Below are positions 30,446 through 46,409 of a DNA stretch of 64,000 nucleotides, piece by piece (within the stretch, counting starts at the first letter, position 1; each line of letters opens with the position of its first letter). Under the pieces are notes generated by a model that had not been told where the DNA came from, did no database searches, and was given only the letters and a program-made list of their open reading frames with translations. The stretch is from sequence record PX393109.1. One strand, given 5' to 3'. Position numbers and translations under genes: made by a program. The stretch is from a phage.

Positions 30446-33400
30446 TTAACTAAAGTATGCGCGAACGTTCTTAACGAACGGACGGTTAACTGGGTTGGAT
30501 AGAGACAGGGTGATACGGATGCGGGTATTAGCCACATTTACTCCTGACAGTTTGTAAGGTACAGTGTACCACCCATCTCCCAGAGCGGTTCCGGTACTCC
30601 CTGACAAGGCTACCCATTCGCTATCCTTCTGGTACTGAACGGTTACGCTAGCACCAGATGGTACATACTGATCCAGGATGACGTTAAGAGTTACCGGAGT
30701 AATGTTACCGTTAGGGATACTGAACTGACGCTGGGTATATACCCCAGGAGTATCAGTAGTACCAGAACGGAAGATGACGCCACCGAAGACCTTCGGAGAT
30801 ACGGTAGGATCACCGGTATTAAACTCAGCCATCAGACTGAAAGTACCAGAGAAGTTCTCAGTATACGTTTCAGAGTTAACGTTGAGGTTAATGTTATCAG
30901 TACCGTTAGTGAGATAGAATCTCACGGAGGTATTTGCCGGAGTCTCAATATCAGCAGTAAGCGAAAGACTGTTGGTATTGCTAGCTACCGTTACAGAACC
31001 CAAGTTAACAGTGCGAGTAGAACTATAGTCAGCAGCATGGAGACGATACACCAAGTCTTCATCCTGAACTGGAGACCAGGTAGATTCGTTCGCAGAAGTC
31101 AGAAGAACACCCTGAGCTGGCTGATTCACTACATACTGCTGCTTATCGGGATCATATCCGTTTATCTTAGCTGTGGCTACCTTACCCTGATAGTTAGCCG
31201 TAGCAACTATGATGGCATACTCAGTACCACCAGTCACTGTTACTGGATAACGAAGATTGATCTTGTTCCACCCCAGTACACACTTATTAGCCGGAACTTC
31301 ACCGAAGCCATAAAGCTGAGTGGAGTTAGGGATACCTACCAAAGTAGGGACCAGTTTAATCTGGAGTGTGTTAGTAGGCAGCTCAGTCAGATAGATAGAT
31401 ACTGCGTTAATATCACGAGTAGCCTGGATAGTGAAGGTCTGAGCCACTGGATCGTAACCCCACGGAACAGCACCACCAGTCCAGTTCTGACCGTAGTCGA
31501 CTTTACCAGAGTTGTAGATGGTTACGGTACCGCGAGTAATAGCCTTAGTGGTCTTACCAGTAGCAACATACTGATACGTACCGTTAACCAAACCACCAGA
31601 CAGCATATGAGCATACTGTACAGCACCGTTATCATCCGCAGTCAAGGTAACCACTGGCAGGTTACGGAAAGTAAGATCAATCTGTTCGTTGGCAGCATAC
31701 CCAGATAGCTTAATCGTGATCGTAGTATCTACCGGCAGAAAGCCACCATGGAAGTACGACCAGAAGCTACGAGTATCGATCTTAGCTGGTGAAACAGAGA
31801 TCATCGCCTGAGGTACCTGACCAGACCCAGCATACGGGTTGATGCGGGTGTCCTTAGTACGGAATTCCTGAGACTGAATTACGGTATCAGTGAATGATAA
31901 CATAATACCATCAGGAGCCAGACTGGACTGCCGTGAGAAAGATGCTCCGATGAACAGCTGACCATCATCGATAATGGCGTTGTTGGTTAATCCAGCATCA
32001 CGCATGTTACCGTTAAGCAGGGAGTCAACTACTACACCTTTCTTAGTCGTAGTCGGATCGGTAGAGCGAGTTTCATCACGGAGCGAAAGCTGGGCGATGT
32101 TGTACTGCATGTCGCTTACCAGAGACATCAGATCTTTTAGCTCATTATAAGTAACCACTTCGATGCGGTCATTGTTAATGACCGGATCTTGACCCTTAGT
32201 CAGACGAACAGTTGCGATAGACAGCAACGTAGCTGAAGTACCTGGTAACTGAGCGTTTGCCAAGATTGCCGGAATACCCTTAGTGATCTGAACCGCACCA
32301 GAGGCATCGATAGATACACGGTCATAGCGAGACAGGAAGTAAGAGTAGGTTACGTAGAACGTAGACCCAGATACCAGAGCATCACTGGTGGAAATAGTTA
32401 TGGAGGTATCGTTCCAGGTCGGGATGAACTGATCAATGTACTGATACGTAACCTGGTAAGTAGAACCAGGAGATGGTTCGTTACCAGTAGGTGACCAGTC
32501 TACAGAGTCCCCGTTCTGTACATAGTCACTACCTTTAACATAGACAGTACCACCCTGCTGTACAGAAATAATCTGCAGAACAGGAGTATCCGGAAGTAAG
32601 TCAGACGAACCCGTTGCGGAACCATGAGTCACCGTACGAGTCACCTGCTTAGTACCGGATACAGCAGTTACCTGATCAATTACAGAGTAGCGCAGTTGAT
32701 AGGTGTAAGTACCTGCTGTAAACACGTATGGCTCTGAAGCTACGTTACCAGTATCGTTGATAGGGTCCAGACGCACGGTACTTTCATAGGCGAACAGTGC
32801 TTCGTTTCCGAGTACACGAGCCTTGCCCGCAGACATGTTCAACATAATCTGCTGGGTAGAGCCATCGATGCCTGCATAGGACAGAGTTAATCCGTCCAGA
32901 ACATAGTTACCGTGAGTATCAGAATCGTAGCGACCAAGAAGACCAGAGAACTGGTCGAGATCATTACGAGACTTGGTGGTCTTAACCAGTACGCCATTCT
33001 TGAAATAGAATACTGGGAAGAAGGTATCTCCTTCTGGAACATCATCGGCCAACAGCCAAGTAGTTACCTTCTGGAGACGGTCAGCACCAGCTGAACCATA
33101 GCTCGGAGAGTTCTGATACTGCATGAGGAGCTCAGGATCTTCGAGATAGGTGATTACCTTATCAGAGATAGATACACCTAAAACAGCCTCACCAGCAGTA
33201 GGAAACGATGCATCCGTAACAGCAGGTACATTCATAGCCATACCGGCATAGATTAGCGTACCTTCGGTTATAGAGATTACACCGTCTCCAAGAGCGGAAA
33301 TATCCGCCCCATCAGTAATGGCACCATCACCGACCAAGAAGCCGGACAGTGTAGAGACGTTATTGAGCTGCTGATCCTGAATTTCGTTTAGCTCCGAGCT

Positions 33401-33490
33401 CTGGAGCGGCCTGTCCGCGATAAACAGATGCTTGGCGTAGTTCTTCTTAGCCGCAAATCTGTTAAAGTAATCAGACGGTAAAGTTGCCAT
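30446..33490 (-). CDS. large tail fibre / tailspike protein (1014 aa)
   Basis: Ser/Thr/Gly-rich beta-type composition; sits in the receptor-binding-protein locus. Confidence 0.6.
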   Translation of the reverse strand: MATLPSDYFNRFAAKKNYAKHLFIADRPLQSSELNEIQDQQLNNVSTLSGFLVGDGAITDGADISALGDGVISITEGTLIYAGMAMNVPAVTDASFPTAGEAVLGVSISDKVITYLEDPELLMQYQNSPSYGSAGADRLQKVTTWLLADDVPEGDTFFPVFYFKNGVLVKTTKSRNDLDQFSGLLGRYDSDTHGNYVLDGLTLSYAGIDGSTQQIMLNMSAGKARVLGNEALFAYESTVRLDPINDTGNVASEPYVFTAGTYTYQLRYSVIDQVTAVSGTKQVTRTVTHGSATGSSDLLPDTPVLQIISVQQGGTVYVKGSDYVQNGDSVDWSPTGNEPSPGSTYQVTYQYIDQFIPTWNDTSITISTSDALVSGSTFYVTYSYFLSRYDRVSIDASGAVQITKGIPAILANAQLPGTSATLLSIATVRLTKGQDPVINNDRIEVVTYNELKDLMSLVSDMQYNIAQLSLRDETRSTDPTTTKKGVVVDSLLNGNMRDAGLTNNAIIDDGQLFIGASFSRQSSLAPDGIMLSFTDTVIQSQEFRTKDTRINPYAGSGQVPQAMISVSPAKIDTRSFWSYFHGGFLPVDTTITIKLSGYAANEQIDLTFRNLPVVTLTADDNGAVQYAHMLSGGLVNGTYQYVATGKTTKAITRGTVTIYNSGKVDYGQNWTGGAVPWGYDPVAQTFTIQATRDINAVSIYLTELPTNTLQIKLVPTLVGIPNSTQLYGFGEVPANKCVLGWNKINLRYPVTVTGGTEYAIIVATANYQGKVATAKINGYDPDKQQYVVNQPAQGVLLTSANESTWSPVQDEDLVYRLHAADYSSTRTVNLGSVTVASNTNSLSLTADIETPANTSVRFYLTNGTDNINLNVNSETYTENFSGTFSLMAEFNTGDPTVSPKVFGGVIFRSGTTDTPGVYTQRQFSIPNGNITPVTLNVILDQYVPSGASVTVQYQKDSEWVALSGSTGTALGDGWYTVPYKLSGVNVANTRIRITLSLSNPVNRPFVKNVRAYFS

Positions 33491-33501
33491 TTATTACTCC
33501 A

Positions 33502-34323
33502 TTAGAACGTGAGGATGACAGAATGACCTTCGCGGGTAGTGGACTCACGAATAATTAGGGTGTGGTTCTCGATCCCGAGCATCTCTCCCTTGTCCTTAAT
33601 CATGTCTGGGGTTAGGTAAAGAGAATTCTCATTACCACTCGTGGGTACAGTTCCGATGAAGATAGCGAACTGATAGATCATGTCATCCGCAGCATCAGTA
33701 TAGTTAAACTGAACATGCAGATACAGATGCTTAGTTGGCTTATCGGAGATAGACCACTTCCCTTCTGACGTTTCGATGGTACCGTTAGGATCCGGTTTCA
33801 CATATTCCTTGGTGAGGATCTTACGACGTCCGACTTCAGCATACAGATCAGGCAGCGTCGGGTCCGGATTAGGTGCAGGTTTAGTCCATGCAGACGGGAA
33901 TGTAGTGTTCGTCGTAGGAGGATTAACCTTGCTATCTGGAGTAGTGCTACCATTGTCAGTAAAGCTATTGGAAGTAGACTCACCAATTTTATCATAGGAG
34001 TTGGCACCCTGGCGATAGATGATGTATTTCTCAGCATTCGCAGATGCACCCCAGTTTAACTGAATAGACTGCTGAGAAGCCGAAGCAACGATAGTAGCAG
34101 TGGCTGCCATGGAGGCAGTAGTTTCACCGAATTTGTTAGCTGCAGTAACCACATAGGTATACGTGGCGGGATTTAGAGTACCCCCATCTACCGCGGAGGC
34201 AGACAGGGTTTCTGGAGCAGCTACAGCATCAGGGATGGTACCCCATGCAAAGTGCAGAGTCGCATCATGCACTGTTTTAGCTAAAGCGATGTGGCCACTT
34301 TCGGCCAATACCATAAAGGACAT
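33502..34323 (-). CDS. structural protein with FN3/Ig-like domain
   Basis: YTYVVTAANKFGETTAS...NAEKYIIYRQ resembles a fibronectin type III repeat. Confidence 0.5.
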   Translation of the reverse strand: MSFMVLAESGHIALAKTVHDATLHFAWGTIPDAVAAPETLSASAVDGGTLNPATYTYVVTAANKFGETTASMAATATIVASASQQSIQLNWGASANAEKYIIYRQGANSYDKIGESTSNSFTDNGSTTPDSKVNPPTTNTTFPSAWTKPAPNPDPTLPDLYAEVGRRKILTKEYVKPDPNGTIETSEGKWSISDKPTKHLYLHVQFNYTDAADDMIYQFAIFIGTVPTSGNENSLYLTPDMIKDKGEMLGIENHTLIIRESTTREGHSVILTF

Positions 34324-34339
34324 AGTAGTCTCCGTTTAA

Positions 34340-35794
34340 TTAACTTGCCCAGGTACCCTGAACAGTATCCATCTCCCAGTAACCGGAGATAGCACAAACT
34401 AAGCGTAACCAGGATCCCTTATCCGAGTTGGAAATAGTGGCTTTCCCATTACGGAAGAGATCTGTACCACCAGTTTTTACTGATACGCTGTAGTTGGCAC
34501 CTACAAGAACATCATAGGTCATACCAGGAACAGCGACTGGCAGGGTAACGGTAACAGCAGAAGTGGCACCATCGGTAGTGCAGATAGCACCGGTATCAGC
34601 TGCGGTAAGAGTTACATTAGCTGTAGACGTGATGATCTTCTTAAGAGCACCAGTCATTACACCATCTACTATCTTGATGGTATCCTTACCATTCTGGGTC
34701 AGGACTACTGATCCATCGCCTTTATGGGTTACCTTAGAAGTAAGAGTAGGTCCGTGATAGTAGGTATGAATGATATCATAGCCAGTATTCACTGCATCGT
34801 ATCGAAGAATATGATCCTCTGATGCTCTCTTACCGAAGTGGTAATCGACACCTTCAACTATGGTATCTCGGTTCCATGCGTGAGTCTGGGAAGAGGCTAC
34901 CACACGATAACGAGATTCAGCTCCGCGAAGAACATGCCAGTCACGGTTAGAGTCATCGCTCATACCCGATTCCCAGATCTTAGTTCCGCTTACGCTGTAA
35001 GATACCTTAGCTCTGGCTAACCCGTTATTACTGTTAAGGTTAAGGTTAGCGTTGGACGCAGACGAGATAATTAAACCATCAGTAGAATTACTGATGAATC
35101 TCACTGCAGCCGTCCATGAACTACCGTCCCATCCAGACATATCCAGAATCTGGACACCAGGCTTGATGGTTAAATTAGCGAGGGTATACTTAACACCAGG
35201 GTCGATTATAGCCAGACCAGTGGTGATAGTGGTAAGCATATCCTGAACCTGGCCAGTAGAGTCGGTGAGTTTATCAGGAACAGCACCGAATTCAGTAGCT
35301 CGAAATTCTTTGCTACGACGGACTCTTACCCAACCATTCACTACGTCTTTACTATCAGATGCTATGGAGTCGTTTTCTGTTTTAACTCTGAACTCACCAC
35401 CACCAGGGGTACCCTCCCCGAAGTAGCCTTTCACTATCACTCTGTCCCCATCTTTAGGAGTGATAGTTTTCAGATCTTCTACAGAGTTTACCTGACCAAT
35501 GTAGCGCCAGGAAGTAGAAGACCCGAACATTGAAATAATGAAGTCTACTGCATTAGTCTGGGCGAAGATCTCGTATCCAGCTTTAAGAGTAGTTTGTTCG
35601 GCATCGGCATACGGAGTTTCACCGTCGGTGGTGTGGGGGATATCCCCCACCCACTTAACCAACACCTTCTTACCATCAGTGCGCACAAATCTGAGAATGC
35701 AGTGGTTACCGTTTAGATAGATACCAGCCGCATAGTCACCTTTGTACTTAAGGCTGCTTAACTGCAGACTATCTGGCAATTGGGTGGACATCAA
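34340..35794 (-). CDS. tail fibre / tailspike protein (484 aa)
   Basis: In the receptor-binding locus; Gly/Ser/Thr-rich. Confidence 0.55.
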   Translation of the reverse strand: MMSTQLPDSLQLSSLKYKGDYAAGIYLNGNHCILRFVRTDGKKVLVKWVGDIPHTTDGETPYADAEQTTLKAGYEIFAQTNAVDFIISMFGSSTSWRYIGQVNSVEDLKTITPKDGDRVIVKGYFGEGTPGGGEFRVKTENDSIASDSKDVVNGWVRVRRSKEFRATEFGAVPDKLTDSTGQVQDMLTTITTGLAIIDPGVKYTLANLTIKPGVQILDMSGWDGSSWTAAVRFISNSTDGLIISSASNANLNLNSNNGLARAKVSYSVSGTKIWESGMSDDSNRDWHVLRGAESRYRVVASSQTHAWNRDTIVEGVDYHFGKRASEDHILRYDAVNTGYDIIHTYYHGPTLTSKVTHKGDGSVVLTQNGKDTIKIVDGVMTGALKKIITSTANVTLTAADTGAICTTDGATSAVTVTLPVAVPGMTYDVLVGANYSVSVKTGGTDLFRNGKATISNSDKGSWLRLVCAISGYWEMDTVQGTWAS

Positions 35795-35815
35795 GAATCT
35801 CCTCAGTTTAATCTA

Positions 35816-38437
35816 TTAAACTGTCTTAAAGGCTGGCGTATCTACGGAAGTTAATACTGCGCCATCAGGAACGTTAGACTGAAGTGCTGGGTACACATCA
35901 AAGTAATAATTACCACCATTGACATAACCACTGCGGACGATAGTACCGACGTAATCAGCGCCATCCGCACCACCACCTCCTGCTATTTTAACCTTACATC
36001 CGGCAGTCTTATAATACTGGCCAGTCCAGTTAAGGTTAGTCTTAGAGCGAATAGAGTTAGATCCAGAAGTAGCGGCAGCGACAGTTTCGTTGGAGTAGAA
36101 CAGAGCTCCAGGAGCAGTCACAGTAAACATAGTTCCGTCACTAGCAACAATAGTGTCGCCAGCCAGCAGAGCCATGCCATAAGGAGTACCGGTCTTGGTA
36201 TGGTAAATCACACCGTTCTGACGCCATGCTGGAGTACCACGGTAATGAGTCGCGGTAGTGGTCTTCTGAATAGGGAAGTTACAATCAGAGACCTCCAGAG
36301 TATCCACCGTGATGTTCTGGACAGTAACGTTAGCCGCACCGGTATTAGGATCAAGGCATTTCATGTTGGAGATGTTAGCAACCATCCACTTGTTACGGCG
36401 GTAGTTATCTCGAGCATCACCAGACGTGTATCGGAAGTCGAGAATGATTTTCTCAGCTGACCAGTCCGAGAGACGATACTCGGATGCCATACCCTGGAGA
36501 GATATGGTGGTAGCTTTGATATTCTTCATCTCGACAGTAGAGTTCAGAGTATCGGTAGTACATACCTCAACATGAACAGTACCAGTGATATTTACGTTAC
36601 GAATACGGATATTACGATGAGCGAAGGTATAGGCATTACTCACTGTACCCCACAGGAAGCGAATCATTTCCTCAGTACCATTAACTGGGGAGCCGATTAC
36701 GCCATCCACATCGATATCCTTACAACCGTAGGCGATAAGGCCTCCAGTATCCAGACCTACACCAGTTGACTTATTGGCATCTGGGTAAATCTCGATGTCT
36801 CGGATAGTGATGTTGCGGCATTTCTCCATATGGATACACTGCTTAGCACCCTTAACCTTAACGTTACTGATTACCACGTCTGACATATACTCGGAATCTG
36901 GAGCAGTCAGAGAGTAGTTACCAGTACCAGCCAGACCAATTGCAATACCCCAGTTGGCGTTACCAGTGCTAGTTGCGTCGACATTATCTACAGTGATGTT
37001 ATCGATTCTGGTATTGGTATCTGCTACTGCCAGGTTAATCTCAATAGGGTCGCTCTTCATGTCGAAGAACTGCAAGTTCTGCAGCAGAGTCGCAGTGAGC
37101 GGCTTGGAGGATGCAGGACTACCCTGACGGAGGTAACCATAATTACAGCGACGCATAATACCGTTAGTGACGAACAGCTGGCTATTAGCCGCTAATTGCT
37201 GACACAGCAGAGCAGCAGTCGCAGAACAGTCATTAATCTCGAACTGGTCGAGTTTAAAAATACCGTTTATGTGACGAATACCGCATTTGCTAAGGTTCAG
37301 CTTAGTTATGTCAGTATCACCATTAACCAGCAGCTGTGAACTAGCACCGGTACCAACTATGGTTAGGTTCTCGATCACTACACCGGAGATATCCACCGAT
37401 TGGTTAGCGATCTTGTAAGTACCCATACCCATAAGCTTAAGACCATAAGTCTTAGCCAGAGTAACAGCGGAGCGAAGAGCTGCTGTATCGTCCGTAGTAC
37501 CGTCGCCTTTAGCTCGAGCCATTTCTGGGGTGATGTATCGAATACCATCAGCCACCGTGCCACCATATCTCAGATAGACAATAGCAGCACCAGTAGTTTC
37601 GCCAGCAGTCATGAGCTCTGACTTAAGAGCACCAGAACCTACAGGAATCCACTTACCAGTCCCCTGTTCAGACTGAGATGGCTCCGGATCTCCATAATTA
37701 ACAACTTTAGGAAGAACACCATCCCATTTATAATACTCCCCATTTACTGAGAAGCTTACAGTCTGGACTCGGGTAGTGAGAGTCAGGCTCTGACCTTCAG
37801 ACAGATCAGTAAGTTTATAATTAACGAAACCTACTTTTTCTGAGATCTCTCTGGTAAGGCTATCGATGCGATCCTGGGTAACGCTAAGAGCATCACGAGA
37901 GTTCAGCTCGGCAGTCACCAGGACGCCCTTCGACAGCTTAATCTTAGTAAGAGTGATCTTGCGACTAATAACATCGATAGTGTAATCTTCTACGCGAGTA
38001 AGGCGGACACCACCTACGAATAGACGTACGCTGGTAAAGGAATAAGGAATATTAAACTCGAATTCCCCATCCTCCTGTACCTCGTAACTCCACTCGATAC
38101 CGCTCTGTACTCCTCCAGTCCAGTAGGATTCTTCGTAGAAGTTACCAGTAGTGGTAAACGGTACAGGACCAGTCCAGTAGTACAGCAGATTATCATATCT
38201 GACATACTGGCGGTCGTTCTCGATCACCATTCCGGAGGCATAGTTACCGAGGATATACATAGACTGACCAGCAGTCTGTTGCAACTCGTTAACGTTGCCT
38301 ATTGTTTCGGCAAGAGTCTCGTCTAATACTTTCTGCTGATTTTCTAACTCTCGAATATCGAGAGTCTGGTTATCATGCTGATAAGTATTAAGAGGAGCTC
38401 CGCCTAGTTCGCTAAATAACTTAGAACGACCGCCCAT
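35816..38437 (-). CDS. tailspike with right-handed beta-helix (pectate-lyase-like) domain
   Basis: Repetitive N/G/T-rich beta-helix-type coils; N-terminal region shares the YYWTG.P motif with other fibres. Confidence 0.6.
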   Translation of the reverse strand: MGGRSKLFSELGGAPLNTYQHDNQTLDIRELENQQKVLDETLAETIGNVNELQQTAGQSMYILGNYASGMVIENDRQYVRYDNLLYYWTGPVPFTTTGNFYEESYWTGGVQSGIEWSYEVQEDGEFEFNIPYSFTSVRLFVGGVRLTRVEDYTIDVISRKITLTKIKLSKGVLVTAELNSRDALSVTQDRIDSLTREISEKVGFVNYKLTDLSEGQSLTLTTRVQTVSFSVNGEYYKWDGVLPKVVNYGDPEPSQSEQGTGKWIPVGSGALKSELMTAGETTGAAIVYLRYGGTVADGIRYITPEMARAKGDGTTDDTAALRSAVTLAKTYGLKLMGMGTYKIANQSVDISGVVIENLTIVGTGASSQLLVNGDTDITKLNLSKCGIRHINGIFKLDQFEINDCSATAALLCQQLAANSQLFVTNGIMRRCNYGYLRQGSPASSKPLTATLLQNLQFFDMKSDPIEINLAVADTNTRIDNITVDNVDATSTGNANWGIAIGLAGTGNYSLTAPDSEYMSDVVISNVKVKGAKQCIHMEKCRNITIRDIEIYPDANKSTGVGLDTGGLIAYGCKDIDVDGVIGSPVNGTEEMIRFLWGTVSNAYTFAHRNIRIRNVNITGTVHVEVCTTDTLNSTVEMKNIKATTISLQGMASEYRLSDWSAEKIILDFRYTSGDARDNYRRNKWMVANISNMKCLDPNTGAANVTVQNITVDTLEVSDCNFPIQKTTTATHYRGTPAWRQNGVIYHTKTGTPYGMALLAGDTIVASDGTMFTVTAPGALFYSNETVAAATSGSNSIRSKTNLNWTGQYYKTAGCKVKIAGGGGADGADYVGTIVRSGYVNGGNYYFDVYPALQSNVPDGAVLTSVDTPAFKTV

Positions 38438-38561: not shown

Positions 38562-41549
38562 TTACTGCTTCTTTTCAAGATCGGAAAGTCTGGCTTCGAT
38601 TCTTTCCAGTCTTCTTCTCTGGAATGCTGCCTCAGCAAAGAAAATTCCATCAGGTCTCACTCCCCACTCCTCACCCTCTTCGTGAATAACCACCTCGGTG
38701 TATACAGGCTCTTCCGTGGTAGTGACATTACCCTCCTCGTCAGTATGTTCAACGACTTCATAGTGAGAGAATACCATGTCTGTCATGCGAGGATATTTGT
38801 CGTAACACAGAACAGCATATCGGCAATCCGTGCTGTCCTCATCCATCAGACCGTGAGCAATGAATACATCACGGATCTGCTGAGCAATTACGCCAAAATG
38901 GATTCTAGCTTCATTCCCTTTTAGGTGTACAGAATCCAACCACTGGTACATAATGTAATGAACGTCTCCCCAAGCATCTAAAAAAGCATCATCAAAAACT
39001 ACCGGCTCTGTTTTCTTCTCTCCGTTAGAAGTAACAATAGGGTTGCTTCCGAGGTATGCAGTGGTGAAACGGTTGCTAGGACCACCAAGCGCAATGACGT
39101 TATCGTTATAAGGCTTAACATCAGCACTCCGAAACAGGTGCTCATCTCCGTTGTAAACTATCCTGCGAGAAGCTGTGTTACTCGCACCGTAAAGCGTAAT
39201 CTGTGCACCAGTAGAAGAACTGGTGCCGTCTCCTCCGCAAAATATGATACGCTGTCCTGCGGGGTTATTAGTCGGTACAGATTTCCCGATAAACCCATAC
39301 TCACCCTCCATTAAAACTTCAGAGCGAATGTTACTACTGGTGCTGGCTCTAATGACCACATGACCTAAACCCAAATCCCCTGTAAATTCCATTGGCGCAG
39401 GAACAGTGCGAGTTCCATTCGTATCAAAAAACACTGGAACCGCTCTGTCAGGTACAGCACCATACCTGAAATCACGAGAAACGCGATTGTCTGGACCGAT
39501 TTTCATTTTGTAACAATACAAATCTGAGGGATGACCGTCTGATTTGAATGGGTCCTTCTCTAAGTTATCTCCATACGTCCATGGGTTCAGATGGTCTTCC
39601 CCACCGAACATGTAATAGATATAACTATCTTTCACGACAACCGATCCGACACCGACTCCAGAGTTAACAATACCACCCTGATAAATCTGATCAGAGATGT
39701 TTACCCACTGAGTATTATCCAAGTTCCAGGTGTCGAGGTTCACTCGCGTGTAGAACGTTCGTGGGTAAGAACTGAAATATCGTTGATCCGGTGCGTTTGC
39801 TTCCCACTCGTTGTCTGCGCGTTCAGTACCGAAAAGAATCAGTTCGTTTCCTACCTTAGCGAATGGCAGGGTAGAGTGGTGTACGTTATTCGGAAACCTC
39901 AGCGATTGCCAGGTAATCCCCAGGTCGTTACTGCGATGAAGAGAACTACCAAGACGATCAGACCTGGTTCCACGGGTTACAACATAAAGAACACCGTCAA
40001 AATACTTAACGCAGGGTTCTGACGCATCTGGCTCATATTCAGCAGGAATACGTCGTTTCTGGTAAAGACCAGGATTGTTGAACGCATCAGGGAAATACAA
40101 CATACCTACTTCACGCGGAGCAACATCACCCTGGTGGTACCCCATCATGAATGAGTCGTTATTGATGGCGGTAAAACTATGAACCTCGGTAACCATAGGG
40201 ATCAATCCAAGACTGGTTTTACGCCATGGTGACTGATGGAACGATGTCCCCATATGCCAGCGGTTGGTAGAGTTATTTTGGTCGAATGCTTGTTGATTTG
40301 GTGTGGTAACTGTGAACGTGTTGCGGTCAATAACTGAAGTTACAGTCATATTCCCAGAAACTCCAGTCACCCCAGAGTTTGAGAAGTTAACAAAATCCCC
40401 AGCAAAAAGACCGTGTTCGGGGATGGTAATTACAGCCACAGACTGGTTGGCCGCTTTTGTTATACCACCTGTCAGATGGTAGTTACGGGACATGGGGCGA
40501 TCCCACAACTCACAGGTCACTAATGCGTTAGCTGCTAAAGTACGGGTCTCAATCATCGCAAAGAGACGATTACGCATCACTCCCATACTCATACAGTGGT
40601 AGTTAACTGTTGGGTAATTAGGGTGTAGGTCAGTTAGCCACTCCGGGGTCGTCCAGGTCTGCCCGTCATCTCCTGAGCGAACCCAGGATACATGAAGCCT
40701 GCTAACCCCGTGCCGATCGCTAGCCATGAACGGACAGTAAATAACATCGTCGTAAACGAACGCTTTATCCTGAGGCCAAGCATTGTAATAAGGGGTATCG
40801 GTTATTTTAATTAACTCGCCCTGAACAAACTCGTCAGACACATAATAAAGCGGCTGGCCAGGAATACGCTCATAAACGAAACGAGTGTTGACGAATCTGC
40901 TAATATCTGGAAGCGCGGATACTTTATAGGTTCTACCGTTACCATTAATTTTCTGACCTACTGGAGCAGCGCTTAACAGATTATTAAGAGCCACAGTATC
41001 ATCGACTAATCCATCACCTTTAGCTCCCCAACCACGAGGGTCGAAAATGTCACGCCATCGAGCAATCTGCAATTCGGGGTATTTTGTTGCACCATCCGGG
41101 TCTGATATTTGCCCTCGCAGTGCGGTATCACCAATACTAGCCCAAGCATCAGAAGAGACACCACCAGTAGTTAGCGGTGATGAGTTAGCATATACAGTTT
41201 TAGGGAACACACCACCCCACACGTAGCACTGGCCACCATCAATATGCCAGACAGCATCCTTTTTACTGTTTACTGTAGCACCTTCTTCAAAAGTGCCAAC
41301 AAGAGTTAGTCCTAAGTCACCTAGTAATAACTTCCACTGTTCTTTAGTATTATTAATTATCGATAAATTAGACTTTTTTAAAATGGAGGTTCTAGTAGCT
41401 AATTGGGTTATTGGATGATTAATATGTCCGGATACTGGTTCATCCTTAGAATTAGTAACTAGTTGACCGCCTTCTGCCCTATCCGTCTTTTCTAAGCGGC
41501 GAATAGTCTCGGGCCAAGTTGACCCTTCTACAATTGGATTATAAGACAT
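38562..41549 (-). CDS. sialidase-like (BNR/Asp-box) tailspike with C-terminal intramolecular chaperone domain
   Basis: Asp-boxes SGDDGQTW and SNDLGITW; C-terminal HFGVIAQQI and terminal coiled coil resemble an S74-type auto-processing chaperone; N-terminal CYVWGGVFPKTV motif. Confidence 0.6.
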   Translation of the reverse strand: MSYNPIVEGSTWPETIRRLEKTDRAEGGQLVTNSKDEPVSGHINHPITQLATRTSILKKSNLSIINNTKEQWKLLLGDLGLTLVGTFEEGATVNSKKDAVWHIDGGQCYVWGGVFPKTVYANSSPLTTGGVSSDAWASIGDTALRGQISDPDGATKYPELQIARWRDIFDPRGWGAKGDGLVDDTVALNNLLSAAPVGQKINGNGRTYKVSALPDISRFVNTRFVYERIPGQPLYYVSDEFVQGELIKITDTPYYNAWPQDKAFVYDDVIYCPFMASDRHGVSRLHVSWVRSGDDGQTWTTPEWLTDLHPNYPTVNYHCMSMGVMRNRLFAMIETRTLAANALVTCELWDRPMSRNYHLTGGITKAANQSVAVITIPEHGLFAGDFVNFSNSGVTGVSGNMTVTSVIDRNTFTVTTPNQQAFDQNNSTNRWHMGTSFHQSPWRKTSLGLIPMVTEVHSFTAINNDSFMMGYHQGDVAPREVGMLYFPDAFNNPGLYQKRRIPAEYEPDASEPCVKYFDGVLYVVTRGTRSDRLGSSLHRSNDLGITWQSLRFPNNVHHSTLPFAKVGNELILFGTERADNEWEANAPDQRYFSSYPRTFYTRVNLDTWNLDNTQWVNISDQIYQGGIVNSGVGVGSVVVKDSYIYYMFGGEDHLNPWTYGDNLEKDPFKSDGHPSDLYCYKMKIGPDNRVSRDFRYGAVPDRAVPVFFDTNGTRTVPAPMEFTGDLGLGHVVIRASTSSNIRSEVLMEGEYGFIGKSVPTNNPAGQRIIFCGGDGTSSSTGAQITLYGASNTASRRIVYNGDEHLFRSADVKPYNDNVIALGGPSNRFTTAYLGSNPIVTSNGEKKTEPVVFDDAFLDAWGDVHYIMYQWLDSVHLKGNEARIHFGVIAQQIRDVFIAHGLMDEDSTDCRYAVLCYDKYPRMTDMVFSHYEVVEHTDEEGNVTTTEEPVYTEVVIHEEGEEWGVRPDGIFFAEAAFQRRRLERIEARLSDLEKKQ

Positions 41550-41624: not shown

Positions 41625-42248
41625 TTATTTAGCTCGAACGATGTACAGAAATGCTACGTTCTTTGGTACAATTTCATTGGTGCCGTTTCGTCCATATACT
41701 GAAGATGATCGTGATGCCAAGAAGTTAATTACTGTAGGATACTTAGAGGTATCGTTAATATCCATTGGAAGTCCAGCTAATCTATAATACTGACCTTTAG
41801 TATTAGTACCGTAGAGTGATCCAGAACCAAATCCTGATGCTGTGCTTTCCCAGATTGATGCATTCTCAGTATTAACAGTCCTGAACCACCCAAATATTTC
41901 TGGGGCAGAATCTGACTGACCAGTATTGATCGTTCGCCCTGCATCCATGCCTCTGCCATCATCATAACCACGGATAAATTGTGCACGTAGATCTTGTAAC
42001 TGATTAGTTGTCCATAGCTTAGCCAGTTCTGGGTATGTTTCTGGATCGAATACCTGACCATTCATCTTCAGAAATCGCATACCTTTCATTGAGGTGAATA
42101 TCTCATCAGGCATCTTGGTAGGATGGACCCATGGGAATGGTACTCCGATTAATGGAGCTCCATTACCGATACCTAGCTGGCGTAGATATGCTTCAACTTC
42201 AGCATCTGTACCTTCGTTCATTAAGTACTTAAGACGAGTGAGGCTCAT
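41625..42248 (-). CDS. stand-alone tail-fibre tip paralog (collar-like domain)
   Basis: GVPFPW..PTKMPDE...KGMRF...FIRGYDDGRGMDAGRTI is homologous to the C-terminus of the 480-aa fibre. Confidence 0.55.
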   Translation of the reverse strand: MSLTRLKYLMNEGTDAEVEAYLRQLGIGNGAPLIGVPFPWVHPTKMPDEIFTSMKGMRFLKMNGQVFDPETYPELAKLWTTNQLQDLRAQFIRGYDDGRGMDAGRTINTGQSDSAPEIFGWFRTVNTENASIWESTASGFGSGSLYGTNTKGQYYRLAGLPMDINDTSKYPTVINFLASRSSSVYGRNGTNEIVPKNVAFLYIVRAK

Positions 42249-42323: not shown

Positions 42324-42932
42324 TTACTTGGCAGGTGCTTCTGGCCATACGATAGTATCAGGATCAGTAGTTTCAATAGCTTCTACTTCCTCTTGATAAT
42401 CTAGCCATAAATTGAACTTGACTTTATCAGCATCGCTCAGTCGACCCATTGCCAGTTTGGATGGCCACTGCTTACTATTGATATAAGCATTAGCATCTTC
42501 AATCAGTGCTACTTTCTTAGCATCAGCTGCAGCTACCTTAGATTCGTACTCGGCAACCTCATCCAGTACCCAAGCACTCGTATCTTCATCCCACTTATCA
42601 TGGATTGAAGTAGGTGCGATGATCGTATAAGTGTCATCGATAGGACCAAGCTCCTGGATAGTGACCTTAGTTTGATCATCTTTTGAGTAAACTTCTACTC
42701 CACGGTGATCTTCTACGTATTCCCACTTCTTGGTATCTTCATGATATACTCGTGCATATCCTTCACGTTCTTCAAGTACTGGAACGATGGTGGAGTGAGC
42801 TGGTACTGATACGCCTACGTAGATAAACTCTTCACGATTAAACGTGAACTCATGAGTGTTCTCATTGTAGTTATAAACCATCACCTTACCAGAAGTGGTG
42901 GCAAAACCTTGATCGTTAAATTCAATACTCAT
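42324..42932 (-). CDS. tail fibre assembly protein (Tfa-like chaperone)
   Basis: C-terminal KVKFNLWLDYQEEVEAIETTDPDTIVWPEAP is typical of the Tfa family; directly downstream of a fibre gene. Confidence 0.75.
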   Translation of the reverse strand: MSIEFNDQGFATTSGKVMVYNYNENTHEFTFNREEFIYVGVSVPAHSTIVPVLEEREGYARVYHEDTKKWEYVEDHRGVEVYSKDDQTKVTIQELGPIDDTYTIIAPTSIHDKWDEDTSAWVLDEVAEYESKVAAADAKKVALIEDANAYINSKQWPSKLAMGRLSDADKVKFNLWLDYQEEVEAIETTDPDTIVWPEAPAK

Positions 42933-44374
42933 TATAATGCCCTTACAATAATGTTGTATGCGACGTTACGTGGACGTGTCTCATTCGGAAGATTATCAAC
43001 TATGTTAGTAGTCCTCATATTCTTACTAAGATCATCCAACTCACCACGAGCTCCGGCATGTAGCGTGACATTGTAAGAATTACCTGGTAGCTGAACTGGA
43101 CTGCCATTAGTTTTGATCTGAGTATTATGAATATGTTCCTGAATAGATTGTGATTGACTACTCAAGATAGTTCTTCCTGCATCAACGTTTCTACCGTCAT
43201 CCCAACCACGTATAAATTCACCACGTAGATCAGGTAACTTATTAGTAGGATAAACAGTAGCTAACTTAGGATACAGTTCAGCATCGAAGTTATCACCACG
43301 AGCTTGGATGAAGTGCATACCTTTCAGTTCAGGATATACTTCATCCGGCATCTTATCCGATGGCCAGTAGAAGGGTACACCAATCATCGGTACACCGAAT
43401 TCATACTTGGTCTTATCCATCTTACCAGCTAATGTGACCAGTACTTGCTGCAGATCTGCCACACCAGCATTAGCGATACCTGCGAATAACTTGACTACCC
43501 AGCATCCAATAGCCGCATTAGGACGTACTTCATCAGTACCGTCACGACCATAAGATGGACTAGATACTGAAGCATCAATTCTTATATCTAGTACTCCACT
43601 ATTAGTACTAGATACAGCATTAGACATTTTACCATTATACTCAGCGATTATCGATGAGTTAGATGGTACACCTGATCCGAAGATGTTAACTATATTACTA
43701 ACTGAGCCAGTAATATTAGGTGCACCATTCTGTAGTACTTTACCGGTACGAGCTGTATCACCATTATCACCACGGATGTGCAATCCCTTTATGGAATCAC
43801 TCAGCTTACCATTTAGGTCAGGTACTCGAAAAGTAGTCGTACCATCACCAGTAGTATAACAGTGACGCTTAGTAGGATCAGCTACCCAGTCAGCTTCAGG
43901 ACATACTTGTACTAGTCCAGCATTAATTGCTGCCCAAGTATCAGGATACAAGATACGTGAGAAGATACCACCATCAGCTGCTACGAATCCACCCCATAAT
44001 GGTGACCCTAATAACTTACGAGAGGATAACCACTTAACTTCCAATAAGTTACCAGCACCCATTTGGTCGATCGACCAAGGTACCCAGTTAGAATGGGTGA
44101 TAGGTGCGTTTGCAATATCTACTGGGAAGTTACCCTTCCATGAATATGCACGCTGACGATCAAGAGATACTACTAGATCGAATCGGTTAGATAAGATACC
44201 ACCGAACTCAAAAGTAGCTGCCAGATTGTAACCACAATCGGCTAAGTCATTCGCCCACAACTCGATGATGTTATCTTGGTTGTTCTTAATCTTAGGAGTC
44301 AATTCATTACGAAGTTCACCAGCACCATCAGATGGATTGAAACCAATATAACCACCCATATTAGTTCTCCACAA
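42932..44374 (-). CDS. tail fibre protein with C-terminal collar-like domain
   Basis: GVPFYWPSDKMPDEVYPELKGMHF...LPDLRGEFIRGWDDGR; N-terminal YSWKGNFP motif. Confidence 0.65.
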   Translation of the reverse strand: MWRTNMGGYIGFNPSDGAGELRNELTPKIKNNQDNIIELWANDLADCGYNLAATFEFGGILSNRFDLVVSLDRQRAYSWKGNFPVDIANAPITHSNWVPWSIDQMGAGNLLEVKWLSSRKLLGSPLWGGFVAADGGIFSRILYPDTWAAINAGLVQVCPEADWVADPTKRHCYTTGDGTTTFRVPDLNGKLSDSIKGLHIRGDNGDTARTGKVLQNGAPNITGSVSNIVNIFGSGVPSNSSIIAEYNGKMSNAVSSTNSGVLDIRIDASVSSPSYGRDGTDEVRPNAAIGCWVVKLFAGIANAGVADLQQVLVTLAGKMDKTKYEFGVPMIGVPFYWPSDKMPDEVYPELKGMHFIQARGDNFDAELYPKLATVYPTNKLPDLRGEFIRGWDDGRNVDAGRTILSSQSQSIQEHIHNTQIKTNGSPVQLPGNSYNVTLHAGARGELDDLSKNMRTTNIVDNLPNETRPRNVAYNIIVRAL

Positions 44375-44702
44375 TGGAAAGAGTCAGGTCTACCATGTTC
44401 GAGTTATTAGAAGTATCTACAGCGGATGCTGAAGCTACTACCTGATCACCATCCATGAGAATTACCTTAGCAGAATCGATATTCAATGCCGACTTCTGAG
44501 GAAGATTAGTGTCTTTACCTAGCAGGTAGACATCATTTCCAGATGCTGGTTTAATCTTAAGCTGGAACTGAGCTGCAGCATCTGTAACACCATTATGGGC
44601 TGCCAGGATTCCAACGATTATAGCACCAGTAGCCGGAGTAGTATAAATGGTAGATTCAGATTTAGTTAGCGTAGCGCTAGCTCGTTTAAATTTAGCTGCC
44701 AT
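44361..44702 (-). CDS. small structural protein
   Basis: ORF within the fibre locus. Confidence 0.45.
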   Translation of the reverse strand: MAAKFKRASATLTKSESTIYTTPATGAIIVGILAAHNGVTDAAAQFQLKIKPASGNDVYLLGKDTNLPQKSALNIDSAKVILMDGDQVVASASAVDTSNNSNMVDLTLSIVEN

Positions 44703-44711
44703 GAGTATTCC

Positions 44712-45629
44712 TTAGAAAATTAGAGCATTTATGAAAGCTGCATTTTCTACTTCGTTTATGCGAGTAGTTAGAGCATTCTCTACACTATCTAACTGGGCAA
44801 CAGTAGCATAGCGATACAGAGCACCAGTCTTAACAGGAACCCATTTACCATCACCAATACCGTCCGCTTCAGGAGTACTGTTAGCATTTACGGTCTTCGG
44901 AAAATCGCCATCCCAGCGATACAGAACACCATCATGCATAACTATGCAGTGGTTCTGACGTAGAGTAAAGCCAGTACTGAAGTCGCCTCCAGTAAAGTAC
45001 TTATACTCTTCTAATTCGACGGCGTAAGCAGATAAGTCTACTCCACCATTGCTATGTACGAACCATCCGCCAGCTGTTAAGCTAACGATAGTTGATCCCT
45101 CTGGAATACCCATCGGCAAACGATAGGCTTCCTGGGAGGCTAAGTCATACAATACACGAAAGCCGTCGAGAGGACGACCTACTTTCATGAACTGGACTTC
45201 TTCGGTCTTAACTCGGAATGCCCGAGCAACCATGTCCACTTGACGTTGGTTTACCGGAATCACCTCAGTCCATAACCCATCAGGATTACTTTCTGGGTCG
45301 AAAATCCCACCGGTATCTTCTGGAGATGAGTTCTCGGCGACCGATTTGGGGAAGGAGCCTAGCCAGTAATACCACTTGCCAGACACCTCGTCATACACAC
45401 CATCCCCAGAGTCCTGGAGATCAAACCCTATCCCGAAAGTACCTACTGGGTTAATCCCATAGATATCCAGGAATGAATTCAATGCCAGACTACGGAGATA
45501 TGTAGTTCTGTCGGTAAGATTCTTAATGGGTACGTTATCAATACCGTCATCACCACCCGACACTTTGTCAGTACGTTCGAAGGTATAGATGTCCTCTACG
45601 TACTGATTTTTACCCTGATAAGTACCCAT
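44712..45629 (-). CDS. tail fibre protein (paralog family, internal repeat)
   Basis: N-terminus FERTDKVSGGDDGIDNVPIKNLTDRTTYLRSLA; two copies of the W.G.FPK.V...S.PE motif. Confidence 0.6.
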   Translation of the reverse strand: MGTYQGKNQYVEDIYTFERTDKVSGGDDGIDNVPIKNLTDRTTYLRSLALNSFLDIYGINPVGTFGIGFDLQDSGDGVYDEVSGKWYYWLGSFPKSVAENSSPEDTGGIFDPESNPDGLWTEVIPVNQRQVDMVARAFRVKTEEVQFMKVGRPLDGFRVLYDLASQEAYRLPMGIPEGSTIVSLTAGGWFVHSNGGVDLSAYAVELEEYKYFTGGDFSTGFTLRQNHCIVMHDGVLYRWDGDFPKTVNANSTPEADGIGDGKWVPVKTGALYRYATVAQLDSVENALTTRINEVENAAFINALIF

Positions 45630-45641
45630 TTCGATATCCTA

Positions 45642-46409
45642 TTATATAGTGTAAGAGAACGTGTATCTCAGAGACAGCTCGTCTGTACTACCCTGATTAA
45701 TCTCAAGAACAGCCACACTACTGTCCACATCGGCATAAATCTGACCAGCTACTATACCAACGCCAACTCCTGAGAGGCTTGAGTCATCTGAGAAGGTAGC
45801 GTTAATAGGTAAGCCAATTCCTATTTTCATTACTTCTCCGGCATCGGTAGCAGAAGCAGTGATCTTGCCGTTAACAGTAACCACATTCCCTAGTCGGGTA
45901 TATATGGCTTCTGCTATGTCTAGATTGGAGACATTCTCAATCTTAACGAAGGCTGGATTGTACTTACCGCTATACAGATTACCAGGAGCAGCTGCTGTAG
46001 GGATCTTAACCCCAGCACCCAGGTCTAGAACACTGAGATCAATAGCCACCCACTTACCGCTAGGATTGGTGATCGGATCATAGATACCACCAGTAGTTTC
46101 TGGCTTAGAAGACTTAACCACTACTTTAGGTAGAGATCCTGTCCACTTAAACCACTTACCGGAGATCTCGTCGAAGACCGCATACCCAGCCACGTTAATC
46201 TGGAATCCTTGTTTGAACGAGCCGAGAGGATTAAGATTGAACAGCTTAAGGAATGTAAAGTCAGCAAGAGCCTTAAGATAAAACGTACGATCCGACAGCT
46301 GGGTAAGAGGTACGTTATCAATGCCGTCCGGGCCACCTTTAACCACATCACTTTCTTCAAATTGGTACACCTGAGCATGAAAGTTAAATGCCCCAGTATA
46401 ATTGCTCAT
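45642..46409 (-). CDS. tail fibre protein (paralog family)
   Basis: N-terminus FEESDVVKGGPDGIDNVPLTQLSDRTFYLKALA, homologous to the downstream 305-aa protein. Confidence 0.6.
   Translation of the reverse strand: MSNYTGAFNFHAQVYQFEESDVVKGGPDGIDNVPLTQLSDRTFYLKALADFTFLKLFNLNPLGSFKQGFQINVAGYAVFDEISGKWFKWTGSLPKVVVKSSKPETTGGIYDPITNPSGKWVAIDLSVLDLGAGVKIPTAAAPGNLYSGKYNPAFVKIENVSNLDIAEAIYTRLGNVVTVNGKITASATDAGEVMKIGIGLPINATFSDDSSLSGVGVGIVAGQIYADVDSSVAVLEINQGSTDELSLRYTFSYTI

What the first reader, a model, noticed from the sequence alone, without database searches (positions are those of the whole stretch)
30446..46409. Roughly 16-kb multi-receptor-binding-protein locus with a shared motif
At least eight fibre or spike genes are contiguous: 1014, 273, 484, 873 (beta-helix), 995 (sialidase-like), 480 plus Tfa, 305 and 255 aa. 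Several carry a recurring motif Y-x-W-x-G-x-(F/L)-P-K-x-V...S-P-E near the N-terminus (255 aa, 305 aa twice, 995 aa; degenerate in 873 and 480 aa). This suggests a common docking module carrying different enzymatic or binding heads, consistent with a branched multi-specificity adsorption apparatus.
Basis: partly seen in the sequence, partly recalled or inferred. Interest (0 to 1): 0.6.

Follow-up and report, generated by a model that had tools for sequence, protein, structure and literature searches.

The report
Phage multi-tailspike locus sharing one domain
This is the host-recognition gene cluster of an E. coli phage almost identical to the GenBank phage vB_EcoM_IME392, and the repeated motif is the signature of a known tailspike domain (Pfam Tail_spike_N) that sits between each protein's attachment end and its exchangeable working end, so the locus is a good but fairly ordinary example of modular phage tail fibres.

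Summary
The ORFs and the motif are real. The strict motif occurs five times, all in coding frame inside the locus and nowhere else in the window. It is the signature of Pfam PF18668 (Tail_spike_N), which is the D2 'head' domain of CBA120 TSP1/3/4 and G7C gp63.1. An independent profile supports seven copies in five proteins (255, 305 twice, 995, 873 twice, 480 aa). An eighth possible copy is in the 484-aa protein.

The locus is 96.7% identical to phage vB_EcoM_IME392. It encodes a K1F-type endosialidase, a phi92 gp150-type colanidase, a collar-tip fibre with its chaperone, a putative small depolymerase and two short conserved proteins. The 273- and 1014-aa proteins are baseplate-periphery proteins, not demonstrable fibres.

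The 'common docking module' reading is only partly right. The domain is homologous and carries many different heads, but the part that stays constant in this lineage lies upstream of it (995-aa protein, aa 1-72). The domain itself sits at the junction where heads are exchanged.

Branching gains support. The colanidase has the window's only T4 gp10-like XD domain (E 1.3e-10), and the body-less 305-aa protein has its only D1 domain (E 4.6e-23). D1:XD3 is the contact shown experimentally in CBA120.

Verdict: a new member of a known kind, of modest interest.

The parts
45642..46409 (-). p255: short receptor-binding-type protein. N-terminal anchor peptide plus helix (aa 1-56), Tail_spike_N/D2-like domain (aa 60-124, nt 46038-46232), then a C-terminal beta-sandwich (aa 145-254).
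44712..45629 (-). p305: body-less protein. N-module as in p255 (49% identical over aa 1-123, with a D2-like copy at aa 54-127, nt 45249-45470), D1 (aa 129-204, nt 45018-45245), D2 (aa 212-271, nt 44817-44996), then a C-terminal coiled-coil neck of about 33 aa and no catalytic body.
   Evidence: Pfam PF18668 E 2e-28 with two stretches. Residues 127-272 match the heads of CBA120 TSP3/TSP1/TSP4, G7C gp63.1 and B2 Gp48 at E 1.6e-29 to 7e-26. The D1 profile hits only this ORF in the window, E 4.6e-23. Orthologues of 305-316 aa with the same C-terminus occur in IME392 and in L002-L004 (all P0001); a further orthologue is P0002.
44361..44702 (-). p113: small protein of unknown function, always found between p305 and the next fibre gene.
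   Evidence: 100% identical but unannotated in IME392. The counterpart in L002/L003 is 109 aa and only about 31% identical. Only a weak PHROG hit and nothing in the PDB.
42932..44374 (-). p480: tail fibre, probably starting at the ATG at 44359. Degenerate D2-like domain at aa 39-84 (nt 44123-44260), an L-shaped-tail-fibre-like segment at aa 131-303, and a gp37-type collar tip at aa 330-421.
   Evidence: Own D2 profile E 1.1e-8. PDB 8hqz E 1.5e-38 and T4 gp37 (2xgf) E 1.5e-9. Pfam Collar. Chimeric relative to IME392 fibres A and B. Start codon checked.
42324..42932 (-). p202: tail fibre assembly chaperone for the preceding fibre.
   Evidence: Pfam Caudo_TAP E 1.7e-18.
41625..42248 (-). p207: stand-alone collar-tip ORF without an anchor. 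It is a paralogue of the p480 tip.
   Evidence: 40% identical to p480 aa 327-479. PHROG tail-fibre families at E 7e-37. Present in IME392.
38562..41549 (-). p995: endosialidase tailspike. Lineage-constant anchor aa 1-72 (nt 41334-41549), D2-like domain aa 70-147 (nt 41109-41342), K1F-type endosialidase from about aa 155 to 840, and a C-terminal S74 chaperone.
   Evidence: Pfam End_beta_propel E 2e-204 and the rest of the endosialidase domain set, Tail_spike_N E 6.6e-15, Peptidase_S74. The head is 92% identical to the Gamaleyavirus UE-S5a endosialidase, aa 155-994. The DNA is 79% identical to K1F. Anchor alignment.
35816..38437 (-). p873: colanidase tailspike and candidate hub. N-terminal coil, weak D2-like copy aa 63-97 (nt 38147-38251), T4 gp10-like XD domain aa 114-181 (nt 37895-38098), D2 aa 207-274 (nt 37616-37819), then a phi92 gp150-like beta-helix at aa 278-866.
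   Evidence: PDB 6e0v (phi92 gp150) E 3e-67. The XD profile hits only this ORF among 607 window ORF pieces, E 1.3e-10, and the positive controls behave as expected. D2 profile 1e-10 and 1e-3. Pfam Tail_spike_N 23.7 bits, just below the 25-bit cut-off. 98% conserved in L002/L003.
34340..35794 (-). p484: putative small tailspike or depolymerase with no N-terminal anchor. Possible degenerate D2-like domain plus neck at aa 9-106 (nt 35603-35770 for aa 9-64).
   Evidence: BLAST to p305 aa 203-256: 42% identity, E 3e-6 in a tiny database. BLAST to P0001 aa 203-306: E 4e-7. Not significant with the D2 profile. PDB 24qi 'tailspike depolymerase' E 2.7e-5. PHROG EPS depolymerase. The orthologue carries PF27114 Phage_tail_beta.
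33502..34323 (-). p273: component of the baseplate wedge / tail-fibre network, not a demonstrable fibre.
   Evidence: Pfam PF25691 BW3TFN E 8.6e-26. No meaningful PDB match.
30446..33490 (-). p1014: DUF4815 baseplate-periphery protein, probably 'tripod'-like. Very conserved and not part of the variable block.
   Evidence: Pfam DUF4815 E 7e-131. PDB 9euf-type chain from the Staphylococcus phage 812 baseplate, E 1.6e-45. 97% identical to the EP_H11 protein while its neighbours diverge.

Best explanation
The locus is the receptor-recognition module of an IME392-like E. coli myophage. It lies between the baseplate wedge genes and the endolysin.

It encodes six trimeric fibre- or spike-type proteins built from interchangeable parts. 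Each has a short N-terminal attachment segment specific to the lineage. Usually a Tail_spike_N (D2-type) beta domain carrying the YxWxGxFPKxV motif comes next, then a helical neck, then a head. The heads are a K1 endosialidase, a colanic-acid depolymerase, a collar-tip fibre with its chaperone, a putative small depolymerase and a small beta-sandwich knob.

I infer that the motif domain is a generic structural junction, not the partner-specific docking surface. Because it is conserved across very many phages and sits exactly where anchors and heads are joined, it probably serves as the seam at which heads are swapped by recombination.

I also infer how the proteins assemble. The proteins with the E-x-x-D...GG...N-x-P...L-x-x-RT-x-YL anchor (255, 305 and 995 aa) attach through that anchor. 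The colanidase acts as a hub through its single T4 gp10-like XD domain. That domain is predicted to bind either the D1-D2 head of the conserved body-less 305-aa protein or the anchor-less 484-aa protein encoded next to it. The result would be a branched apparatus with several specificities.

Shown here: domain identities, paralogy, head exchange among relatives, and the presence of one XD and one D1 domain. Inferred: which protein binds which, and the seam role of the domain.
For: Domain identity:
- Pfam PF18668 hits.
- An independent profile, built from 161 segments of proteins other than the window's own and their closest orthologues, hits only locus ORFs.
- PDB sequence matches of p305 to the CBA120 and G7C heads at about 1e-29.
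- The p255 model matches the same structures.

Modularity:
- 1988 cluster representatives match the N-module profile at E<=1e-3. They have up to 4 tandem copies and heads in 89 unlinked clusters.
- The endosialidase head is 92% identical to that of a Gamaleyavirus whose N-terminus is quite different, with two XD domains and no D2.

Seam role:
- p995 aa 1-72 are essentially identical in the window, IME392, L002 and L003, yet they carry three different heads. L003 diverges exactly at aa 73 and L002 from about aa 103.
- EP_H11 shares the p873 N-terminus up to about aa 204, just before D2, and then diverges. Its p995-type anchor has no D2.
- The ESCO5 colanidase aligns with p873 from D2 onward.

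Hub:
- The XD profile hits only p873 (E 1.3e-10). The D1 profile hits only p305 (E 4.6e-23).
- The D1:XD3 contact was shown for CBA120 (PMC8825819).
- The ESCO5 (phi92-related) colanidase has XD + D1 + D2 + body.
- p255, p305, p873 and p484 are conserved in all relatives, while the block between them varies.
Against: - No interaction was tested, and no complex prediction was possible with these tools.
- The AlphaFold model of the p873 N-terminus failed (pLDDT 33). The XD assignment therefore rests on a 33.7-bit profile match alone.
- EP_H11 has the XD-bearing protein but no D1 protein, so D1:XD cannot be the universal pairing in this lineage.
- In p305 the D1 domain is internal, preceded by 125 residues. 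This may block the face that TSP1 uses to bind XD3.
- The endosialidase cassette joins after the D2 domain (about aa 155), so the seam is not always at the domain's N-terminal edge.
- The copy in p484 is not supported by the profile.
Confidence: 0.6

Rival explanations
1. One reading: the motif-bearing domain is itself the common docking module. Through it all these proteins plug into one kind of socket on the baseplate or on a hub.
For: The domain is shared by five or six proteins of one locus and always lies N-proximal. Pfam names it 'receptor binding N-terminal domain' of TSP1/Gp66. In CBA120 the D1-D2 'head' as a whole is the part that binds partners.
Against: - The contact mapped in CBA120 is D1, not D2.
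- The domain is found in 1572 phage records that range from 40-kb to 250-kb genomes of several families and have different tail types.
- It occurs in up to four tandem copies per protein.
- Within the lineage it is exchanged together with the head (L003), while aa 1-72 stay constant.
- The EP_H11 p995-type anchor works without it.
Confidence: 0.2
2. No branching: each fibre or spike attaches on its own to the wedge or to tail-fibre-network proteins. The 305- and 255-aa proteins are decayed remnants of full-length tailspikes with no adaptor role. The XD-like segment of p873 is a relic.
For: EP_H11 has one full-length 780-aa spike with the same N-module in the slot that p255 and p305 occupy here. 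The anchor peptide alone occurs on ordinary collar- or gp53-type fibres of Burkholderia prophages. Truncated anchor-only RBPs are known in Klebsiella phages (PMC6872550).
Against: p255 and p305 are intact and 90-99% conserved in five independent genomes or contigs, with a preserved C-terminus. At least six trimeric proteins plus p273 and p1014 must fit on a sixfold baseplate. The XD domain is retained in p873, in EP_H11 and in phi92-like colanidases.
Confidence: 0.2
3. The motif recurrence is chance or a compositional artefact.
For: None found.
Against: All five strict copies lie in coding frames of adjacent genes and none lies elsewhere in six frames. Profile E-values reach 1e-29. Fold agreement.
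Confidence: 0.01

Closest known systems
Escherichia phage vB_EcoM_IME392 (MH719082), nearest sequenced genome
   Same: 96.7% DNA identity over 97% of the locus, with the same gene order. GenBank annotates the genes as putative tail fibres, colanic-acid-degrading protein and tail fibre assembly proteins.
   Different: IME392 has one more fibre and chaperone. The window's 480-aa fibre is a fusion of the N-terminus of IME392 fibre A with the C-terminus of fibre B, and about 1.8 kb is missing. The 113-aa ORF is not annotated in IME392.
CBA120 (Kuttervirus) TSP1-4 branched tailspike complex
   Same: D1-D2 head domains (p305 aa 127-272, E about 1e-29), D2-type domains ahead of the neck and body, and an XD (T4 gp10-like) domain in one RBP. 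Several depolymerase specificities are encoded side by side.
   Different: A different virus backbone. Only one XD and one D1 domain, against several in CBA120. The D1-bearing protein has no catalytic body. Most RBPs here have an anchor peptide plus a D2-like domain in place of D1-D2. The interactions are untested.
G7C gp63.1/gp66 and related Schitoviridae (UE-S5a endosialidase + K5 lyase; B2 gp48/gp49)
   Same: The UE-S5a endosialidase head is 92% identical to p995 aa 155-994. The K5 lyase and gp63.1 carry the same D1-D2 head. These are two-protein or branched spikes.
   Different: There the endosialidase itself carries the XD domains and acts as the anchor. Here the endosialidase has a short anchor plus a D2-like domain, and the XD domain is on the colanidase.
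phi92 / rV5-like (Stephanstirmvirinae) multivalent adsorption apparatus
   Same: Endosialidase, gp150-type colanidase and fibres occur together on a myophage baseplate. The p873 body matches phi92 gp150 (E 3e-67). The ESCO5 colanidase also has an XD domain.
   Different: No backbone similarity was detected. Gene order differs. The ESCO5 colanidase has XD + D1 + D2, whereas p873 lacks D1. The phi92 fibre II and the way it branches are still unresolved (PMC13450770).
Anchor / T4gp10-like branching domain / conserved-peptide model for Klebsiella phage RBPs (Latka et al. 2019, PMC6872550)
   Same: The same building logic: a conserved N-terminal anchor, swapped enzymatic heads, and truncated anchor-only first RBPs. 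The anchor plus D2 N-module is common in Klebsiella (pro)phage 'tail fiber/spike domain-containing proteins'.
   Different: That model does not single out the Tail_spike_N domain as the exchange junction. The hosts and phage groups differ.

Membership tests
Pfam PF18668 Tail_spike_N (TSP1/Gp66 N-terminal, D2-type domain) | Profile match above the curated gathering score (25 bits) | tested here: met
   p305 98.7 bits (two stretches), p995 55.4 and p255 37.3. p873 scores 23.7 bits, just below the cut-off. p480 and p484 are not reported by Pfam.
Pfam PF18668 Tail_spike_N (TSP1/Gp66 N-terminal, D2-type domain) | The weaker copies (p873 aa 207-274, p480 aa 39-84, p873 aa 63-97, p484 aa 9-64) are recognised by an independent profile of the domain | tested here: inconclusive
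   A profile from 161 segments of proteins other than the window's own and their closest orthologues gives: p873 aa 207-274 1e-10, p480 1.1e-8, p873 aa 63-97 1.1e-3 (2.6e-5 to 7e-6 in orthologues), and p484 not significant. p484 is supported only by pairwise BLAST.
Pfam PF18668 Tail_spike_N (TSP1/Gp66 N-terminal, D2-type domain) | Same fold as D2 of the solved CBA120 and G7C heads | tested here: met
CBA120/G7C-type branched RBP complex | A hub RBP carrying a T4 gp10-like XD domain | tested here: met
   p873 aa 114-181, XD profile E 1.3e-10, the only hit in the window. The controls (TSP4, TSP2, UE-S5a endosialidase) score 1e-26 to 1e-35. Pairwise searches alone were not significant. The structure model failed.
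CBA120/G7C-type branched RBP complex | A secondary RBP with an N-terminal D1(-D2) head that docks on the XD domain | tested here: inconclusive
   One D1-D2 unit exists (p305, E 4.6e-23). However, it is internal to the chain and the protein has no receptor-binding body. EP_H11 has the XD domain but no D1.
CBA120/G7C-type branched RBP complex | Physical complex between the RBPs | not testable with these tools
   Only single-chain prediction was available. This needs multimer prediction, co-purification or cryo-EM.
K1F-type endosialidase tailspike | End_N_terminal, beta-propeller, beta-barrel and tail-spike domains plus the C-terminal S74 intramolecular chaperone | tested here: met
   All five Pfam families are found in p995, with End_beta_propel at E 2e-204. 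DNA is 79-88% identical to K1F and the UE-S5a group. Enzyme activity was not tested.
phi92 gp150-type colanidase | Homology of the beta-helix body to the solved gp150 structure | tested here: met
   p873 aa 278-866 against 6e0v, E 3e-67. PHROG 'colanic acid degradation' E 8e-177. The substrate was not tested.
   p273 matches PF25691, a baseplate-wedge tail-fibre-network component. p1014 matches DUF4815 and is homologous to a Staphylococcus phage 812 baseplate chain. Neither has a D2, D1, XD or anchor motif.

The most novel reading that the evidence does not exclude
The conserved, body-less 305-aa protein (anchor, D2-like domain, D1-D2, coiled-coil stub) would be a dedicated adaptor. It would bridge the XD domain of the colanidase hub to the baseplate or to further RBPs. 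This would be a way of branching not described for CBA120, G7C or phi92, in which a 'head-only' tailspike paralogue acts as scaffold. The Tail_spike_N domain would act throughout tailed phages as the recombination seam for head exchange.
Probability: 0.2. Interest if true: 0.45.

Novelty: new member of a known kind. Interest (0 to 1): 0.3.

Why it matters
Multi-RBP phages are wanted for phage therapy and host-range engineering, and chimeric tailspikes require knowing where heads can be grafted. This lineage offers a natural series of grafts on identical anchors: endosialidase, pectate-lyase-type and other heads on aa 1-72 of one protein. It also points to the colanidase as a likely hub, which may help interpret the still unassigned fibre II and branching in phi92-like phages. 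The principle is already established and the genome is essentially already in GenBank, so the gain is incremental.

Tried and rejected
- AlphaFold of the p873 N-terminus (aa 1-300) with a 6-sequence alignment gave pLDDT 33 and was unusable.
- IMG/VR held no relative of the wedge protein p497.
- Word-indexed protein searches found only 2 relatives of p305 and 1 of p484, so p484 could not be modelled.
- Pairwise phmmer/BLAST of the Kuttervirus TSP4-N and TSP2-N against all window ORFs was not significant (best E 0.07). Only a multi-sequence XD profile detected the p873 domain.
- tblastn of the p873 XD region found few phage relatives.
- I first read p873 aa 110-190 as a D1 domain because it is collinear with p305. 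I rejected this after the XD profile hit it and the D1 profile did not.
- Promoter-like and terminator-like sites in the locus are at the level seen in shuffled sequence.
- DNA repeats only reflect the protein paralogy. No invertible-segment or cassette-boundary repeats were found.
- The C-terminal beta-sandwich of p255 has no convincing structural relative.
- Literature searches for DUF4815 and 'tail fiber network' did not identify the role of p1014 or p273 directly. The PDB codes led to the phage 812 baseplate paper, but calling p1014 'tripod'-like is my inference from chain counts.

Full report
**Observation**

The minus strand of window 30446-46409 carries an uninterrupted run of ORFs of 255, 305, 113, 480, 202, 207, 995, 873, 484, 273 and 1014 aa, listed in the direction of transcription.

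The strict motif [YF]xWxGx[FLIV]PKxV occurs five times: p255 aa87, p305 aa87 and aa237, p995 aa109, p873 aa236. It occurs nowhere else in the six-frame translation of the window. The looser core WxGx[FLIVM]P adds p873 aa88, p480 aa79 and p484 aa48, against two out-of-frame noise hits elsewhere.

**What the motif is**

Pfam assigns the motif regions to PF18668, Tail_spike_N ('Tail spike TSP1/Gp66 receptor binding N-terminal domain'). The scores are p305 E 2e-28 (two stretches), p995 6.6e-15, p255 2.9e-9 and p873 5e-5, the last just under the gathering score.

p305 aa 127-272 match the N-terminal 'head' of solved CBA120 TSP3, TSP1 and TSP4, G7C gp63.1 and phage B2 Gp48, with E from 1.6e-29 to 7e-26. 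In those alignments the motif falls in the second head domain, D2.

I built a profile from 161 domain segments of proteins other than the window's own and their closest orthologues, and ran it against all 607 ORF pieces of the window. It hit only locus proteins:

| Protein and region | E-value |
|---|---|
| p995 | 1e-29 |
| p305, both copies | about 2e-17 |
| p255 | 5e-17 |
| p873 aa 207-274 | 1e-10 |
| p480 aa 39-84 | 1e-8 |
| p873 aa 63-97 | 1e-3 |
| p484 | not significant |

p484 aa 9-64 are 42% identical to the second p305 copy by BLAST, and its orthologue has the usual next domain, PF27114.

**What the genes are**

- The locus is 96.7% identical over 97% of its length to Escherichia phage vB_EcoM_IME392, a 116-kb unclassified myophage whose genes are annotated as putative tail fibres.
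- p995 is a complete K1F-type endosialidase with its S74 chaperone.
- The body of p873 is homologous to phi92 gp150 colanidase (E 3e-67).
- p480 combines an L-shaped-fibre-like segment with a gp37-type collar tip, and is followed by a Tfa chaperone.
- p484 resembles the N-terminal part of tailspike depolymerases.
- p273 is a BW3TFN baseplate component.
- p1014 is a DUF4815 protein homologous to a chain of the Staphylococcus phage 812 baseplate, probably its tripod protein by my inference. It is 97% identical in the otherwise divergent phage EP_H11. I do not count p273 or p1014 as fibres or spikes.
- p305 has no head. It consists of an N-module, D1-D2 and a 33-aa coiled coil. It keeps this form in five genomes or contigs.

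**Paralogy inside the locus**

- p255 and p305 share aa 1-123 at 49% identity. p995 shares the same N-module at 30-34%.
- p480 and p873 align more weakly.
- The first about 50 residues (E-x-x-D...GG...N-x-P...L-x-x-RT-x-YL) form a separate unit. They occur alone on Burkholderia prophage fibres. Together with the D2-like domain they occur on very many Klebsiella (pro)phage 'tail fiber/spike' proteins.

**Is the domain the docking module?**

Four lines of evidence say it is not the specific dock.

1. In CBA120, analytical ultracentrifugation mapped the contact to D1 of TSP1 and XD3 of TSP4. D2 was not implicated (PMC8825819).
2. The domain is very widespread. 1988 cluster representatives match at E<=1e-3, with up to four tandem copies. 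The heads of 105 long relatives fall into 89 unlinked clusters, including beta-helix, GDSL, GDPD, NAGPA, SASA and BNR families. tblastn finds it in 1572 phage records, from 40-kb genomes to a 253-kb Klebsiella phage. These include Kuttervirus and Kayfunavirus members and Campylobacter phages, and the N-termini ahead of the domain are unrelated.
3. Related contigs recovered through the p305 orthologue have the same backbone. They carry a variable block between the conserved p255-p305-p113 genes and the conserved p873-p484 genes.
   - In that block, the protein that starts with the p995 N-terminus carries a pectate-lyase-type head in L002 and yet another head in L003.
   - aa 1-72 are essentially identical in all four genomes. 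L003 diverges exactly at aa 73, where the domain starts, and L002 diverges from about aa 103.
4. In EP_H11 the p995-type anchor has no D2-like domain. The p873-type N-terminus is shared only up to about aa 204, just before D2. The phi92-related ESCO5 colanidase aligns with p873 from D2 onward. By contrast, the endosialidase cassette shared with Gamaleyavirus UE-S5a (92% identity) starts after the domain, at about aa 155.

The domain therefore sits at the seam between lineage-specific anchors and mobile heads. Joints occur on either side of it or within it. That it promotes exchange by providing homology is my inference.

**Is the apparatus branched?**

- A profile of T4 gp10-like XD domains was built from Kuttervirus FEC14 TSP4 and TSP2 plus distant relatives. 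It hits one ORF in the window: p873 aa 114-181, E 1.3e-10.
- The same profile scores the expected controls strongly and also finds XD domains in the UE-S5a endosialidase and the ESCO5 colanidase.
- A D1 profile hits only p305, E 4.6e-23.

The locus therefore contains exactly one copy of each partner of the contact shown in CBA120. Both proteins are conserved across the lineage. This makes the colanidase the likely hub. Its candidate partners are p305, through D1, and the anchor-less p484, which is always encoded next to it.

Caveats:
- The XD call rests on sequence only, because the structure model failed.
- D1 in p305 is internal to the chain.
- EP_H11 has the XD domain without any D1.
- No interaction could be tested.

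**Comparison and novelty**

The building logic is that of CBA120, G7C, phi92 and the Klebsiella phage RBP models: anchor, branching domain and swapped heads, including truncated anchor-only proteins. The locus is not a member of the Ackermannviridae or Schitoviridae systems, because the backbone and the anchors differ. The genome is essentially already deposited as IME392.

The lineage-specific points are the D1-D2 protein without a body, the three paralogous N-modules, the single XD domain on the colanidase, and the natural graft series on one anchor.

I rate it a new member of a known kind, with interest 0.3.

Noticed in passing
window 42932-44374 versus L001 (IME392) 18490-21742: The 480-aa fibre is a chimera relative to IME392. 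Its N-terminal about 190 aa match IME392 fibre A (448 aa). The rest matches fibre B (483 aa). The fibre A tip, a 142-aa chaperone and the fibre B N-terminus (about 1.8 kb) are absent. This looks like recombination between paralogous shafts.
   Followed up: yes
window 41625-42248 (-): A 207-aa ORF encodes only a collar-type fibre tip, 40% identical to the p480 tip. It has no anchor or shaft and sits right after the Tfa chaperone gene. It may be an orphan or alternative tip, or a recombination relic. It is also present in IME392.
   Followed up: partly
window 44361-44702 (-): The 113-aa ORF is 100% identical in IME392 but unannotated there. The counterpart in related contigs (109 aa) keeps the position but is only about 31% identical, so it varies together with the fibre that follows. 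Function unknown.
   Followed up: partly
window 44357-44374 (-): The mechanical ORF call starts p480 at a TTG inside the end of the 113-aa gene. An ATG at 44359, one base after that gene's TAA, matches the start of IME392 fibre A (MGGYIGF...), giving 475 aa.
   Followed up: yes
window 30446-33490 (-) and L007 (EP_H11) 2602-5646: The DUF4815 protein is 97% identical to that of phage EP_H11. The neighbouring proteins are only 39-68% identical (p484 39%, p273 68%). This points either to unusually strong constraint or to recent transfer of this one gene.
   Followed up: no
window 28484-28519: A perfect 36-nt self-complementary sequence lies between convergent genes, at the point where the coding strand switches. 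It looks like a bidirectional terminator hairpin. It showed up as a reverse self-match in the comparison with IME392.
   Followed up: no
window 52438-55296 (-) and 29588-30235 (-): The 952-aa orthologue in contig L002 of the tail gene at 52438-55296, which is probably the tape measure, carries a Glyco_hydro_19 hit. The 215-aa endolysin of the window is also GH19. The phage may therefore have two GH19 lytic domains, one virion-borne and one for lysis. The 952-aa protein of the window itself was not scanned.
   Followed up: no
L008 (ESCO5) 2853-5906: The colanidase of the phi92-related phage ESCO5 has XD (aa 124-178), D1 (aa 229-301), D2 (aa 305-364) and then the body. This is a TSP4/TSP2-like hub layout. 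It may bear on the unresolved fibre II and branching in phi92.
   Followed up: partly
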